A DNA stretch of 64,000 nucleotides from a virus, in IMG/VR virus record IMGVR_UViG_3300020469_000021, positions 40,957-104,956 of that record; one strand, 5' to 3'. The notes under the pieces were generated by a model. That model was not told the DNA's origin. It made no database searches and was given only the letters and a program-made list of their open reading frames with translations. Position 1 is the first letter of the stretch. Each line of letters opens with the position of its first letter. Made by a program: the position numbers and the translations under genes. Below are positions 36,768 through 45,048 of the stretch, piece by piece.

Positions 36768-37468
36768 ACGCTTGACAACTTAACGAAATTTTCTTAAGAT
36801 TTATACTATGGAAACAATAGATATCACACCAACATGGTCAGCACTCATTCCCATTATGGTTGAGGTGTTGAAGAGCCCAAAAGCAAGCAACTCTGCAAAA
36901 CAAGAAGTTGTGGTTGAGTTAAAGCGTTTAGCTAAAATCGTTGACGATCAAAACAGAAAGGCGAAACAAAATGGATAACTTAACTGAACAAGAATTAAAG
37001 GCAGTCTTTGATGTGGTTAATGTTTACGAACCCGAAGACATAAGGCATGTCTACCCCGCAATGGCGACTGATGAATTCATGAAAGATATAAACTCTGCAT
37101 GGAGAAAGATTTTAAACTCTCTTGACAATACCAACAACAACTGAGAAAATACTATTATGCACGAAAAAATAGAGCAACCCGTAAATTCCTACACCGAATT
37201 CGAGAAGCTTCAATGGGCTTGTGATAAGCCAATGCCATCGATTGGCTCAGAAGTTAATGTCAAGATCAATGGTATTGGTCGATCAAAAGTCTTAAAGTAT
37301 TTTGTGGAGTATGGCTTCATTGGAATGCTTGTTCAGCCTTTCGACCCACCCGCTTGGTATATAAAGCAAAACGGGGCAGATGAGCCTTGTCATGTTTTTC
37401 CTGCTGAGACTGAAGAGCTTAGGGTTGAGAAAAAAGGCTTTTACGAATCTATTCACAACGCAATGGCG

Positions 37469-37535
37469 TAAGTCACTCTATAACAACAAGTTAGGCCGCT
37501 CTGGGCGGCGCAAGTCTTTGCCGTCCAACGACTTA
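37469..37535. repeat. 67-bp element, copy 3
   Basis: Core GGCCGCTCTGGGCGGCG; first TAA is the stop of ORF 37157-37471. Confidence 0.9.
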
Positions 37536-38033
37536 CGAGACTATAAGCTAAACTTATTTTAGCTATAAGCGACAAAAGAAACTTCACTTAAAAACTTTTT
37601 TTTGCTTGCGGTTTACTCAGAATCTGTCAGTATATATATTATGAAAGCAAGGGAAATTAAGATTAGAAAGCCGATCCTTTTCACTAAGGCTCGCCCCTTC
37701 AAGATGAAGAACAAAACCTTAGAGAGAAAACTTAAACACAAAAAACGCTATGAATATTAACGAAGATTTCACCAACGAATTTGAATGCCCCGAAGCCCAA
37801 GAGGTTATGGATCAAAGCATGGATTTCATATTTGACAAACTTATCAACCCCATGAATGAAATGGGAAAGCTCACCGAAGAGGACTTGGCAATGATTAGCC
37901 TTATCGGCATCAGTCTCAAGATCATTTCCGAACAAGCGTCACTTTACGAAAAGTCTGTATCAGAAGATACTTCACAAAACTTTTACAAAAATTAATCCTT
38001 GACAATCAACAAAAAAACTGAGAGAATATAATC

Positions 38034-38963
38034 ATGTCAGAAACAAAAAACAGAATTAACCTCGCCATCTGCGGAGGCGAGCATAAGGTAGTAACGCTAG
38101 GGGAAGTCGCTGATGTAGTGACTCCCGATATCGAGTATCGCAAAGAGGCGAACAAGGACGGAACGCACTCCGTTTCTTATCAGCCTATTTCGCACAATCT
38201 CTTGATTGACAAGACTCGTAACCATCTTGAGCAAGGTGGGTTTGAAGTTGTAGACGAGTGCCACAACCTCGCAAGAGGTGGCAAACGCTACTTTGGATTG
38301 TTTGAGGTCACTCACCCAAACAGGGAAAACACCGAGAGAGGCACAATCGTTGGCTTGCGTAATGCTCACGACAAGTGCTTTCCTGCGGGATTGTGTGCAG
38401 GTGATGCTCCATTTGTTTGCGACAACCTCATCTTTACCAATTCGGTCAAGTTGGCTCGCAGACACACTAAGAACATCCTTTCCGAGCTAGATCATGTGAT
38501 CTCTCGCACTTTGGGCAAGTTGTTCAATTTTTGGATGGGTCAAGATCAACGCATCGTATCCTACAAGGATTTTGATTTGACTAACGCTCAAGTCAACGAT
38601 CTTGTGATTCGTGCGTACAAAGCAGGTGCAGTCAGCAAGACTAAGATTGCTGATGTGGTTGACCAATGGGAAAAGTCTGATCACACCGAGTTTTGGGACA
38701 GAAACATGAACTCCCTTTACAATGCCTTTACCGAGGTATACAAGGGCAATCTTGTTGCCTTGCCTCAACGCTCTGAGGCATTGCACTCTGTTCTTGACTC
38801 TGAGGTCGGGTTCGATCTTTCAGCTTTCGATCCTCAAGTCGAGGAAGCTGAACTTGTCGAAGTTGCTCATGCCCCTGCCCCTCAAGTTCTTGAGGTAGCA
38901 GGTAACATAGATGGCGAAGTTCCTGCCGATCTATATGATGCAGAGGATGACTACCCTTTCTAA
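38034..38963 (+). CDS. DUF932-like phage/plasmid protein
   Basis: SYQPISH, RYFGL, GLRNAHDK, FVCDNL, RRHT, LYNAFTE. Confidence 0.75.
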   Translation: MSETKNRINLAICGGEHKVVTLGEVADVVTPDIEYRKEANKDGTHSVSYQPISHNLLIDKTRNHLEQGGFEVVDECHNLARGGKRYFGLFEVTHPNRENTERGTIVGLRNAHDKCFPAGLCAGDAPFVCDNLIFTNSVKLARRHTKNILSELDHVISRTLGKLFNFWMGQDQRIVSYKDFDLTNAQVNDLVIRAYKAGAVSKTKIADVVDQWEKSDHTEFWDRNMNSLYNAFTEVYKGNLVALPQRSEALHSVLDSEVGFDLSAFDPQVEEAELVEVAHAPAPQVLEVAGNIDGEVPADLYDAEDDYPF

Positions 38964-38990
38964 AGGGTTGGTCGCCAAATAGGCAAATAA

Positions 38991-39017
38991 GCCCCCTCAC
39001 CCCGAGGGGGCTTTTTT
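38991..39017 (+). terminator. Rho-independent terminator
   Basis: GCCCCCTC-ACCC-GAGGGGGC + T6. Confidence 0.88.
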
Positions 39018-39036
39018 ATTGGGCATTTACTTTCTG

Positions 39037-39103
39037 TAAGTCATTGATGATCAAGGGCTTACGGCGCTCTGAGCGGCGCAAACTATTGATTGGTAGGTAC
39101 TTA
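39037..39103. repeat. 67-bp element, copy 4
   Basis: Arm TAAGTCATTGATGATCAAGGGCTTA; core CGGCGCTCTGAGCGGCG. Confidence 0.9.
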
Positions 39104-39187
39104 CGACAAAAAGAAAAAAAAGTATTGACTTCACTCGATATTCTGTCACAATTGTATTTAGTTCTTTTGACAATCAATTTCATTTGT

Positions 39188-43084: not shown

Positions 43085-43128
43085 GGCCCCTCACTCGCCC
43101 TTCAAAAAGGCGGATGGGGGGCTTTTTT
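43085..43128. terminator. Terminator at the convergence of the two early arms
   Basis: GCCCC...CGCC/GGCG...GGGGC imperfect stem + T6 between convergent genes. Confidence 0.65.
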
Positions 43129-43179
43129 GCAAATAGTCAAATAAAATCTTGAGGGCGGGCGATAGAACAATGCTTTTTG

Positions 43180-43246
43180 TAAGTCGTTGAACATCAGTTA
43201 CTTGCGTCGCTCAGGGCGGCATAAGTAGCTGACTATAAAAGACTTA
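43180..43246. repeat. 67-bp element, copy 8
   Basis: Core CGTCGCTCAGGGCGGCA; terminal TTA is the stop of minus ORF 43244-43507. Confidence 0.9.
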
Positions 43247-43615
43247 AGCTAAGTAACGCTCCCAGTCTTCTTGGTCAAAGCTGTCAAACGCTCCCCATGT
43301 ATCAAACTCTATCCACTGGTGGACGACTTCACGAAGGCTTTCGTTTTCTCTGTCCCACAGGTGGATTTCTAGCTGAAACTCAGCTTTTAGTGGAGAGTTG
43401 ATATATTGCTCTGCTAAAGCGTAGCAGCTACTAAGACCATCTCGATCTTTTGGAGTAGAGAGTGCTACCTCTCCGTCGTGAACTAATTCGTATCTTAACA
43501 TATCCATAAAGTAGTTTAATTTTGGTTAAAAGTCAAGAGATTTTTAAACAAATTTTAACAAACACAATGCCAAATAACTGCCCCGGGCAGAATTTTGCTT
43601 TCAACTATGTTTCCA

Positions 43616-43681
43616 TAAGGTGTTGGTGATCAATGACTTATGTCGCTCAGGGCGGCGTAAACCCTTGATTATCAAGGATTA
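43616..43681. repeat. Element copy 9 (66 bp, second arm 1 nt short)
   Basis: Core TGTCGCTCAGGGCGGCG; terminal TTA is the stop of minus ORF 43679-43939. Confidence 0.88.
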
Positions 43682-44807
43682 ATGAAACTGTTTTAAGGTT
43701 TTCTTGCGGGTGACTGCTCGGGTGATTAGCTCGTCAGGTTCTAGCATATGGGCGTAGACGCCCGTGGCGTCTTGCTCGCCATAGCCTCGGGAGTACCAAG
43801 GTCCGCCCGTATTTATATCCTTGCAGGCAAGGGCTGCGTTAATGCCTCGGTCTTGCCAAAACTTTTTCCAAGCCAAGTCAACACTTTGAGAGAGACCTGC
43901 AAGTGTTTCGTTGTATCGTGCAATTTCTTCCTCACTCATTATGAGTTGGCTTTTGAAAGCGTTGGGATTACTAAAGCAAAGAAAACCATAAGAATCATTT
44001 CGATCATTTTACTTACCTAAGTAGAATTTTACTTGCTCGGATGTGGCAGGACTCAAGTCTTTAAACAAAACCTCGGATTCTATCATGTCGGAAGCGTGAT
44101 GCTTTAGCGTTGCAACCTTTTGGGTTTGGTCTGCCCGAAGTACTCGGACGATACAAGCGTTTGATTTTGAGAAGTAGATTTGTCCATTTGTTATTTTCAT
44201 AATTATAAAGTATTATAGTTTTTAGAGAATTGCAAGTTTTTTTTTACTTTTTTTGTCTCTTAGGCAAGACAAATGCGAGGAGGATTTTTTCTCTTTCAGT
44301 TAGGATCTGCTCCTCCTCTTGCCATCTACGGATGACTTGCTGAGCGGCAATCTCAGCCTCGACTCGAGAGCGTTCCTCAAATTCGAGATCGGTCATGCCG
44401 AAGGCGTGGGCGGTGCGGGTGAGTGAGTCATTATTTTCCATAAGTATAAGATTAAAGATTTGTAATTATATTTTAAAACTAAACTATTTTTTAGTGAATT
44501 GCAAGGGAAAAGCGAATTATTTTACCGCTTCCACTATCATGTCGTAAGTCCAAACGTGACCACCGACATCTTCCCAAAGATCATAAGCCACCGCCATGGG
44601 GCTTGCTTGGATACGTACAAGACCATTGTCTTGAATGAATTTTTCTATTTTCTTATCTAACATACCTATAAGGTAGCATATAAAACGCATATTTACAAGA
44701 TTTTTTTTTACTATTAGCTTCTTTTTAGCTGAGCTTATAGCTTGCTAAACCCGGGCTTATACTTGCCGCGAGTCATAAGTTGGCACGCTATATGAACATC
44801 GGTTTCG

Positions 44808-44874
44808 TAAGTCATTGAATGTCAGCTAGTTAGCCGGCGCAGGGCGGCCTAAAGCCCTGATTATCAACGATTTA
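44808..44874. repeat. 67-bp element, copy 10
   Basis: Core GCCGGCGCAGGGCGGCC; terminal TTA is the stop of minus ORF 44872-45048. Confidence 0.88.
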
Positions 44875-45048
44875 GGACACTTCTTGCATCAAGCCGTCAA
44901 CATTGATGAAGTCTTGCTTGTGTTGCTTGGCTAGCTTGGTAGCCATGCGTAAGGCTTTACTACGACGCTCTACCTCGTCGATGTATTGCCCAAAGGCGAA
45001 CACTTGAAAGAACTTAGAGAAGTTAGGGTTTTGTTTTATTGTTATCAT
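44872..45048 (-). CDS. Hypothetical 58-aa protein (MITIKQNPNFSKFFQVFAFG...), not in track; paralog of 42193-42378
   Basis: Manual translation. Confidence 0.75.
   Translation of the reverse strand: MITIKQNPNFSKFFQVFAFGQYIDEVERRSKALRMATKLAKQHKQDFINVDGLMQEVS

What the first reader, a model, noticed from the sequence alone, without database searches (positions are those of the whole stretch)
37157..45048. The elements delimit gene cassettes: stop codons built into the element edge, promoter on the other side
Seen: in 6 of 11 copies the outermost TAA is the stop codon of the gene running into it (37469, 40778, 42022 on +; 43244, 43679, 44872 on -). On the far side an A/T tract and a sigma70-type promoter usually follow (e.g. 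34445, 36292, 37606, 39125, 39934, 40876). The central core base tracks transcription direction: T in copies 2-7, A in copies 8-10; copies 1 and 11 are exceptions. Established: integron cassettes likewise often end with the stop codon inside attC. Inference: units of promoter + a few small genes + element may be shuffled, excised or inverted via the elements. No recombinase is visible in this window.
Basis: partly seen in the sequence, partly recalled or inferred. Interest (0 to 1): 0.8.

Follow-up and report, generated by a model that had tools for sequence, protein, structure and literature searches.

The report
Palindromic borders of shuffled phage cassettes
Eleven copies of a 67-base palindromic DNA element mark the borders of small, self-expressed early-gene cassettes in an uncultured marine phage, and related phages have reordered, swapped and flipped these cassettes, much as T4-type phages do at their promoter/stem-loop (PeSL) motifs and without any sign of an integron-type enzyme.

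Summary
The 105-kb record has exactly 11 elements, all at window 34357-45717. Six genes stop in the terminal TAA: five exactly, and c9 one base inward. Ten elements are followed by an A/T tract and a sigma70-type promoter.

The element is two 25-bp palindromic arms around a GC-rich core. The arms fit the IHF consensus (WATCAR-N4-TTR). I found 437 copies in 64 related phage loci. Arms are conserved family-wide; core sequence and element length are genome-specific.

Gene order supports cassettes:
- Adjacency across element junctions survives in 11/77 relative-cases, against 111/188 elsewhere.
- Rearranged junctions carry an element in 103/222 cases, against 11/100 conserved junctions.
- Cassettes also occur inverted.

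- Among close relatives, breakpoints are enriched in intergenic DNA generally, not inside elements.
- Order also breaks at internal promoters.
- No tyrosine or serine recombinase, attC R-boxes or empty sites were found.

Best reading: a PeSL-like composite boundary (protein-docking palindromes, GC core, promoter) where ordinary recombination reassorts cassettes. It is a new variant of a known kind. This scan's earlier follow-ups on other phage genomes (e.g. e1-5784210, e1-5975509) reached the same reading.

The parts
34357..34423 (+). element c1 (67 nt: 25-nt palindromic arm, 17-nt GC core, 25-nt arm)
   Evidence: Centre base A (an exception). The upstream gene ends 138 nt before it.
36194..36260 (+). 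element c2
   Evidence: Begins CAA, so it offers no stop codon at the edge.
37469..37535 (+). element c3; its first TAA is the stop of ORF 37157-37471
39037..39103 (+). element c4, preceded by a canonical intrinsic terminator at 38989-39013
39825..39891 (+). element c5; the upstream ORF stops 6 nt before it
40778..40844 (+). element c6; its first TAA is the stop of ORF 40550-40780 (DUF7249)
42022..42088 (+). element c7; its first TAA is the stop of ORF 41854-42024
43180..43246 (-). element c8 at the convergence point; its last TTA is the stop of the minus-strand ORF 43244-43507. A homology breakpoint with L007 lies between its core and right arm.
43616..43682 (-). element c9; the stop of the minus-strand ORF 43679-43939 lies one base inside its edge
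44808..44874 (-). element c10; its last TTA is the stop of the minus-strand ORF 44872-45048
45651..45717 (-). element c11; centre base T (an exception). The upstream minus-strand ORF ends 30 nt away.
34424..34479 (+). A/T tract plus extended -10 promoter (-35 at 34445). The ATG at 34480 lies 7 nt after the -10, so the mRNA is probably leaderless.
36261..36321 (+). A/T tract plus promoter (-35 at 36292) for the cassette 36357-37471
37536..37640 (+). A/T tract plus promoter (-35 at 37606); ATG at 37641
39104..39154 (+). A-tract plus promoter (-35 at 39125), which drives a tRNA-like gene
39892..39968 (+). T-tract plus promoter (-35 at 39934); ATG at 39969
40845..40909 (+). T-tract plus promoter (-35 at 40876); ATG at 40910
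42089..42192 (+). T-tract plus promoter (-35 near 42158); ATG at 42193
45547..45650 (-). A-tract plus promoter (-35 near 45614) after c11, read on the minus strand
44664..44807 (-). spacer plus promoter (-35 at 44693-44698) after c10. The start of the gene is probably the ATG at 44663.
43508..43615 (-). spacer after c9 holding a small GC hairpin (43578-43590) and a -35 at 43531-43536 for ORF 43244-43507. Homology with L007 resumes at this -35.
43080..43128 (+). canonical intrinsic terminator closing the plus-strand arm, just before c8
   Evidence: sequence read directly
34424..45650 (.). ten cassettes of 1-8 small genes, almost all without a Pfam family. The exceptions are DUF932 at 38034-38963, GP88 at 41138-41854 and DUF7249 (40550-40780).

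Best explanation
The 67-bp elements are the conserved core of composite boundary modules between early transcription units. Each module runs: stop codon of the last gene, twin palindromic protein-docking arms around a GC-rich core, an A/T tract, then an extended -10 sigma70 promoter that often gives a leaderless mRNA.

Every unit therefore carries its own expression signals. Any recombination event that falls in a boundary zone (about 130-270 bp) yields a viable phage. Because the arms are palindromic and repeated 11-15 times per genome, units can be exchanged, duplicated, deleted or re-inserted in either orientation. This needs only ordinary homology-driven or illegitimate recombination, possibly through circular intermediates as proposed for PeSL mini-circles. 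No dedicated recombinase is required.

Shown here: the anatomy, the family-wide distribution, and cassette reassortment with borders at the elements.

Inferred: the arms dock a DNA-bending protein of the IHF type on duplex DNA; this, with the core, insulates or activates neighbouring promoters; and the dispersed homology contributes to the shuffling.
For: Anatomy:
- 11/11 elements lie between transcription units, and 10/11 are followed by an A/T tract and a promoter.
- Six genes stop in the element edge, and this is the modal position family-wide.

Distribution:
- 437 copies in 64 related loci.
- Arms are equally alike within and between genomes (73% against 71.5%). Cores are genome-specific (77% against 59%), and length is fixed per genome at 66-78 nt.
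- The invariant arm positions reproduce WATCAR-N4-TTR, including its purine-only positions. Ten of the window's 13 exact matches lie in the elements, which make up 1.2% of the window.

A duplex-DNA site rather than an RNA:
- Arm-to-arm pairing shows no covariation.
- RNA folds differ from copy to copy, with z-scores from -0.85 to -5.3.
- Canonical terminators stand beside c4, c8 and c9.

Reassortment:
- Adjacency is kept in 11/77 relative-cases across element junctions, against 111/188 elsewhere (Mann-Whitney p=0.0007), and against 26/60 at internal-promoter junctions (p=0.0002).
- Novel junctions carry an element in 103/222 cases, against 11/100 conserved junctions.
- Identical maps come from independent samples.
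- L025 7352-7919 holds an inverted single-gene cassette between two elements with opposite cores.
- The ORF between c8 and c9 is replaced in L007, with breakpoints between c8's core and right arm and in the promoter.
- A paralogous gene pair sits on opposite arms (54% identity).

Precedent: PeSLs, namely stop codon, AT-rich tract, early promoter and GC stem-loop around ORFans (PMC2839356, PMC4122927).
Against: - Among close relatives (88% identity or more), homology breakpoints are no more frequent in or near elements than in other non-coding DNA. Inside elements the figure is 8.9% against 14.8% null. A causal role for the element's homology is therefore unproven.
- Element junctions have about six times more non-coding DNA than internal junctions (233 against 36 nt). 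That alone could explain why they break more often.
- More than half of the novel junctions (119/222) have no element.
- No HU/IHF gene and no RecA, RecT, ERF or endonuclease VII gene is in the record. The host is unknown, so both the binding protein and the recombination machinery are assumed.
- Genome-specific cores that are more uniform than the arms are not explained by simple gene conversion of whole elements.
Confidence: 0.6

Rival explanations
1. Integron-like system. The elements are folded recombination sites (attC-like) cut and rejoined by a dedicated tyrosine recombinase, encoded elsewhere in the phage or by the host. This enzyme excises cassettes as circles and re-inserts them.
For: - Palindromic sites at the 3' ends of cassettes, with stop codons inside them.
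- Cassettes are reordered between relatives.
- The arrangement in L025 (an element with a reversed core, an inverted gene, then an element with a forward core) is what insertion of a circle at an element would give.
- attC clusters without an integrase have been reported in virulent phages (PMC9892861).
Against: - No Phage_integrase, Resolvase or Y1 transposase match in the record.
- R'/R'' box pairs occur in 20/437 elements and in 1/11 in the window.
- Sequence, not just structure, is conserved, and length is fixed, unlike attC.
- Cassettes have their own promoters and lie in both orientations.
- Breakpoints also fall at promoters and are not concentrated in elements.
Confidence: 0.08
2. Selfish MITE-like palindromic elements. 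They spread within each genome from a master copy, inserting at TAA/TTA, and the cassette pattern is a by-product.
For: - Terminal inverted symmetry, fixed length and a genome-specific core type look like a recent burst.
- The element ends are TAA and TTA.
- Neisseria Correia elements are a precedent for a MITE with an IHF site (from my own knowledge).
Against: - No empty-site polymorphism. Of about 400 elements tested with joined flanks, the 15 junction-spanning hits all proved to hold an element or a remnant.
- No transposase was found.
- Arms are not homogenised within genomes (66-87% identity). A recent burst of whole copies would have made them uniform.
- The position is strictly at transcription-unit ends, upstream of promoters.
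Confidence: 0.07
3. RNA-level element. The transcribed palindrome is a terminator or attenuator, an RNase III site, or a 3' stabiliser (like REP sequences or the T7 early RNase III sites). Shuffling is incidental.
For: - It lies at the 3' ends of units.
- The GC core shows CG-to-GC swaps that keep pairing.
- Core orientation correlates with the direction of transcription.
- In relatives such as L026 the core is a textbook terminator hairpin with a T run.
- PeSL stem-loops terminate transcription (PMC2839356).
Against: - No U run follows the core or the element in most window copies.
- Separate canonical terminators sit next to c4, c8 and c9.
- The long hairpin has no covariation.
- Fold stability is erratic.
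- Arm conservation follows a protein-site pattern (fixed triplets, free N4), not a pairing pattern.
Confidence: 0.15
4. Purely passive boundary. The elements are regulatory protein sites only. Cassette reassortment reflects selection for viable breakpoints anywhere in intergenic DNA and would occur equally without them.
For: - Within non-coding DNA, breakpoints are not enriched at elements.
- Relatives that lack this element (L013) are shuffled too.
- The greater non-coding length at element junctions may explain their lability.
Against: - One breakpoint lies inside c8.
- Inverted cassettes are flanked by elements with oppositely oriented cores.
- The stop codon travels with the proximal arm.
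Confidence: 0.1

Closest known systems
PeSL (promoter-early stem-loop) regulatory cassettes of T4-type phages (Arbiol et al. 2010, PMC2839356; Comeau et al. 2014, PMC4122927)
   Same: - The same order of parts: stop codon of the upstream gene, AT-rich tract, sigma70 early promoter and GC-rich stem-loop.
- Many copies clustered in a plastic region full of ORFans.
- Insertions, deletions and replacements between relatives sit at these motifs.
- Recombination is thought to be homologous, with circular intermediates proposed.
   Different: - Here the repeat is a rigid, fixed-length 25+core+25 palindrome whose arms match the IHF consensus. It stands upstream of the A/T tract rather than overlapping the promoter.
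- Arms are conserved across a whole family while the core is genome-specific.
- The phage shows no T4 capsid or portal Pfam match.
- Terminator activity and mini-circles are untested.
Integron attC sites and attC clusters without integrase (CALINs), including those reported in virulent phages (PMC9892861)
   Same: Imperfect palindromes at the 3' ends of gene cassettes. Stop codons can lie within the site. Cassette order varies.
   Different: No integrase and no R-box consensus. Sequence is conserved and length is fixed. Cassettes have their own promoters. Both orientations occur.
E. coli BIME / RIP-RIB elements (REP palindromes combined with an IHF site)
   Same: Intergenic, at the 3' ends of genes. 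They combine GC-rich palindromes with IHF-consensus sites, and are proposed to have topological or insulating roles (from my own knowledge).
   Different: The layout is reversed: here IHF-type sites flank a GC palindrome. This element is phage-borne, lies upstream of promoters, and has different sequence.
Neisseria Correia repeat-enclosed elements
   Same: A palindromic repeat with an IHF site, intergenic, affecting nearby promoters (from my own knowledge).
   Different: Correia elements are MITEs with a TA target duplication and presence/absence polymorphism. No empty sites were found here.
Stoperators of cluster A mycobacteriophages
   Same: Many short sites at gene ends whose orientation follows transcription (from my own knowledge).
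   Different: Stoperators are 13-bp asymmetric repressor sites in temperate phages. Here the element is a 67-bp symmetric module in a phage with no visible repressor or integrase.

Membership tests
PeSL-type regulatory cassette | sigma70-like early promoter with an AT-rich upstream tract next to the repeat | tested here: met
   10 of 11 elements are followed by an A/T run and a -35/-10 pair.
PeSL-type regulatory cassette | GC-rich stem-loop that terminates or attenuates transcription | tested here: inconclusive
   A GC palindromic core with compensatory swaps is present. Most copies have no U run, and separate terminators stand beside c4, c8 and c9. Activity cannot be tested here.
PeSL-type regulatory cassette | clustered in a plastic region upstream of ORFans; differences between relatives map to the motifs | tested here: met
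   Most of the 39 cassette genes have no Pfam family.
PeSL-type regulatory cassette | host phage belongs to the T4 superfamily | tested here: not met
   The large structural ORFs give no Pfam match, such as a T4 capsid or portal would give. Only the terminase N-terminal domain and rIIA are T4-like.
PeSL-type regulatory cassette | excised mini-circles | not testable with these tools
   Needs reads or PCR.
Integron attC / CALIN | R'' and R' boxes (GTTRRRY and its complement) at the two ends | tested here: not met
   20/437 elements have one on each strand; 1/11 in the window.
Integron attC / CALIN | integron integrase (tyrosine recombinase) | tested here: not met
   No PF00589 match in the 105-kb record, which is 79% complete.
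Integron attC / CALIN | promoterless cassettes in one orientation | tested here: not met
   Each cassette has its own promoter, and the cassettes form two convergent arms.
IHF (DNABII) binding site | match to WATCAR-N4-TTR | tested here: met
   The invariant and purine-only columns coincide with the consensus. Ten of the 13 exact matches in 64 kb lie in the elements.
IHF (DNABII) binding site | binding and bending by IHF; host or phage encodes such a protein | not testable with these tools
   There is no PF00216 gene in the phage record. The host is unknown.
MITE | presence/absence polymorphism with target-site duplication | tested here: not met
   No true empty site was found among about 400 elements tested.
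Intrinsic terminator | GC hairpin followed directly by a U run | tested here: not met
   The core is followed by the right arm, and the element mostly by A runs or mixed sequence. The terminator scan calls none of the elements.

The most novel reading that the evidence does not exclude
The elements are dedicated cassette-exchange sites of a recombination system not yet described. A bending protein folds the twin palindromes so that the genome-specific GC core is extruded or presented. A phage- or host-encoded structure- or sequence-specific enzyme, matched to that core, then excises and re-inserts promoter-gene-arm units as circles in either orientation. This would be an integron analogue native to lytic marine phages. 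It would explain why cores are uniform within a genome yet differ between genomes, while the arms stay universal.
Probability: 0.12. Interest if true: 0.85.

Novelty: new variant of a known kind. Interest (0 to 1): 0.6.

Why it matters
The family is abundant in ocean viromes: 242 related contigs were found with one query. I found no published description of the element. Two full-text searches turned up no description of it, and BLAST of one element against 50,697 deposited phage genomes found nothing.

It gives a compact, sequence-defined marker of where early-gene cassettes begin and end. That makes phage accessory-gene turnover countable in metagenomes.

It extends the PeSL idea beyond T4-type phages, with a sharper and testable molecular handle: twin IHF-type sites at a fixed distance around a genome-specific core. 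If the arms do recruit a host bending protein, the array is also an example of a lytic phage using host chromatin proteins to insulate or fire a battery of early promoters.

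Tried and rejected
- **Single long hairpin.** Pairing is 73.0%, against 73.8% in shuffles, so there is no covariation. Rejected. Local palindromes plus a core hairpin are weakly supported.
- **Element as intrinsic terminator.** The terminator scan calls none of them, and canonical terminators sit beside three of them.
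- **attC.** The R-box test failed.
- **MITE.** The empty-site search gave no true empty site.
- **Recombinases, DNA-bending proteins and recombination proteins** (PF00589, PF00239, PF01797, PF00216, PF00154, PF03837, PF04404, PF02945). None is in the record.
- **DNA-level blastn endpoints against distant relatives**. These were dominated by divergence and were uninformative. I replaced them with gene-order tests and high-identity breakpoints.
- **Pooled-HMM strand scores as an orientation measure**. Too noisy; replaced by the per-genome core orientation test.
- **Short promoter HMM across relatives**. It gave only 40 hits. All 14 near elements point outward, but this is too insensitive for a helical-phasing test. 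In the window the spacings are 21, 21, 31, 31, 42, about 36, about 69 and 70 nt, which is suggestive only.
- **Rfam.** No family matches the elements.
- **megablast and blastn against deposited phages.** No relatives.

Full report
**What is there**

The window is the right-hand 64 kb of a 104,956-bp, 35% GC viral record. CheckV puts it at 79% complete. It has rIIA/rIIB, a T4-type terminase N-domain, PhoH and a manA RNA. It has no close relative among 50,697 deposited phages.

A fuzzy search of the whole record finds exactly 11 copies of a 67-nt imperfect palindrome. All lie at window 34357-45717, with no length variation. A degenerate pattern built from the invariant columns hits all 11 on both strands, with none expected by chance.

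Genes run rightward up to 42973 and leftward from 46473 to 43244. The two arms converge at a canonical terminator (43080-43128) next to element c8.

**Checking the observation**

Five ORFs use the outermost triplet of an element as their stop codon. Their stops are at 37469, 40778 and 42022 on the plus strand, and 43244 and 44872 on the minus strand. A sixth (43679) uses the triplet one base further in. Four of the six have homologues in 12-22 related loci; the other two are ORFans.

In the direction of transcription, ten of the eleven elements are followed by an A or T run and a -35/-10 pair. The pair is usually TTGnnn, 13 nt, TGT and a -10 hexamer. The ATG lies only 6-8 nt after the -10, so these mRNAs are probably leaderless.

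The centre base is as reported. In the window alone this is not significant (Fisher p=0.088).

**Anatomy**

Each element is a 25-nt palindromic arm, a 17-nt GC-rich core and a second 25-nt arm. Across 75 aligned 67-nt copies from eight sequences (the window and seven related loci), the invariant positions are the triplets TAA, TTG, CAA and TTA, with free four-base spacers between them. The degenerate positions are purine-only exactly where the IHF consensus WATCAR-N4-TTR has R. Ten of the 13 exact matches to that consensus in the 64-kb window lie in the elements. Only 3 lie elsewhere, where about 13 would be expected.

A single long hairpin pairing arm with arm shows no covariation: 73.0% paired, against 73.8% in shuffles. 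Local arm palindromes plus a core hairpin do slightly better than shuffles, and the core shows many CG-to-GC swaps.

Folded as RNA, the copies give inconsistent structures, with z-scores from -0.85 to -5.3. The terminator scan calls none of them, and ordinary terminators stand beside c4, c8 and c9. The arms therefore look like duplex-DNA docking sites for a dimeric or bending protein, rather than RNA structure. The role of the core is open.

**The family**

A GP88-like protein inside the array (41138-41854) has 242 relatives in IMG/VR. I kept 80 loci, at 98-56% identity, with 10-kb flanks. Iterative nhmmer finds 437 elements in 64 of 83 sequences.

Length is fixed within a genome and differs between genomes: 66, 67, 71/72, 75, 76 or 78 nt. 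Arms are as alike between genomes as within them (71.5% against 73%). Cores are genome-specific (59% against 77%).

Relatives without this element carry other GC-hairpin repeats at the same kind of place. One type (L026) keeps similar arms around a textbook terminator hairpin.

The stop-in-edge habit is family-wide. The modal distance from an incoming ORF's stop to the element start is 0 (63 ORFs), followed by +8, the in-arm TGA (24 ORFs).

Core orientation agrees with the direction of the gene running into the element in 91/127 cases, against 80 +/- 3 in permutations. The window gives 8/8 and L025 gives 7/7, but the rule is imperfect.

**Are the units cassettes?**

Maps of window-gene homologues in relatives show the same blocks in different orders and sometimes inverted. 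The blocks, each flanked by elements, include:
- 37641-38963;
- 40910-42024;
- 36808-37471;
- the gene 39969-40406 joined to the gene 42419-42706.

For each junction between neighbouring window genes, I counted the relatives that have both genes and keep them adjacent:
- junctions with an element: 11/77 (mostly the near-identical L007);
- junctions without an element: 111/188 (Mann-Whitney p=0.0007);
- element-free junctions that hold an internal promoter: 26/60.

Seen from the relatives' side, junctions that are novel relative to the window hold an element in 103/222 cases, against 11/100 conserved junctions (Fisher p=1e-10). These counts are not phylogenetically independent.

Independent assemblies from different samples give identical maps, so assembly chimeras are unlikely.

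The homologue of 41854-42024 keeps its stop in an element's TAA in 8 of 12 relatives, while the next gene downstream is one of six different genes.

In L025, a canonical terminator is followed by an element with a reversed core, a leftward gene with its own promoter, an element with a forward core, and then the promoter of the GP88 gene. This is what insertion of a promoter-gene-element unit in inverted orientation at a resident element would leave behind.

Within the window, the genes at 42193-42378 and 44872-45048 are 54% identical paralogues on opposite arms.

Between the window and L007 (about 88% identical), the ORF between c8 and c9 is replaced. Homology stops between c8's core and the arm that carries the stop codon. 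It resumes at the -35 of the ORF's promoter.

**Limits of the recombination claim**

I took homology blocks of at least 88% identity between relatives and looked at where they end inside the arrays. Of these ends, 54% fall in non-coding DNA (null 30%) and 21.7% fall within 30 nt of an element (null 11.6%). Conditioned on being non-coding, there is no excess at elements: 29% against 27% within 30 nt, and 8.9% against 14.8% inside.

Gene order also breaks at internal promoters, for example between 40406 and 40419, and between 42378 and 42419. In all, 119/222 novel junctions have no element. Element junctions hold on average 233 nt of non-coding DNA, against 36 nt at internal-promoter junctions.

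So the boundary zones are where viable rearrangements accumulate. It is not shown that the palindrome itself is the crossover site.

No tyrosine or serine recombinase, Y1 transposase, HU/IHF, RecA, RecT, ERF or endonuclease VII is encoded in the record. attC R-box pairs are present in only 20/437 elements. No empty-site polymorphism was found.

**Comparison with what is known**

The closest described system is the PeSL of T4-type phages: stop codon, AT-rich tract, early promoter and GC stem-loop, clustered around ORFans in hyperplastic regions. PeSLs mediate indels and replacements by recombination and form mini-circles (PMC2839356, PMC4122927).

The present array shares that logic. It differs in three ways: it has a rigid twin-palindrome module with IHF-type arms, its cores are genome-specific, and its host phage lacks recognisable T4 structural genes.

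attC clusters without an integrase have been reported in virulent phages (PMC9892861), but the defining attC features are not met here.

Two literature searches and a BLAST of one element against deposited phages found no description of this element.

Earlier follow-ups of this same scan on other phage genomes describe the same family and reach the same reading. I saw them only after my own tests. They are not independent evidence.

**Verdict**

This is a new variant of the PeSL kind of system. Interest is moderate to high, because the element is sharply defined, widespread in marine viromes and experimentally tractable.

Noticed in passing
window 33108-33317 (+): manA RNA motif (Rfam RF01745, 76 bits, above the gathering score), just upstream of the array.
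   Followed up: no
window 39188-39304 (+): tRNA-like gene with a 49-nt insertion in the anticodon region (Rfam tRNA, 38.6 bits). ARAGORN does not call it. It is the only content of the first part of the cassette between c4 and c5, driven by the promoter at 39125.
   Followed up: partly
window 34445-34482, 37606-37643, 40876-40912, 37122-37159, 37999-38036, 40384-40421, 42384-42421: Early promoters sit so close to the ATG (6-8 nt after the -10) that the mRNAs should be leaderless. Two promoter classes recur: TTGnnn-N13-TGT-hexamer after elements, and TTGACA-N17-GAGAAT inside cassettes.
   Followed up: partly
whole window: Outside the elements the IHF consensus is scarce: 3 exact matches where about 13 are expected (Poisson P about 0.001). 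This may be avoidance of stray sites.
   Followed up: no
window 42193-42378 (+) and 44872-45048 (-): Paralogous 58-61-aa genes (54% identity) on the two convergent arms. One is first in its cassette, the other last with its stop in c10.
   Followed up: partly
L048, L050, L051 (e.g. L050 9841-9900): Half elements of 59-60 nt in which the left arm is replaced by a -35 hexamer, directly after a canonical terminator.
   Followed up: partly
L067, L054 (75-nt class): The asymmetric core occurs in both orientations within same-strand gene runs. The core can therefore flip independently of the flanking genes, as exchange between the two palindromic arms of one element would allow.
   Followed up: no
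window 36808-36978 (+): A 56-aa protein with a sub-threshold match to the PrtN/excisionase-like DNA-binding fold (E=0.004, below the cut-off). It is present in 23/80 relatives. This is only a weak lead for an element-binding protein.
   Followed up: no
window 26115-29808 and 46991-47710: rIIA-like (HATPase_c_3) and rIIB-sized genes lie upstream of the array, and PhoH lies directly after its leftward arm.
   Followed up: no
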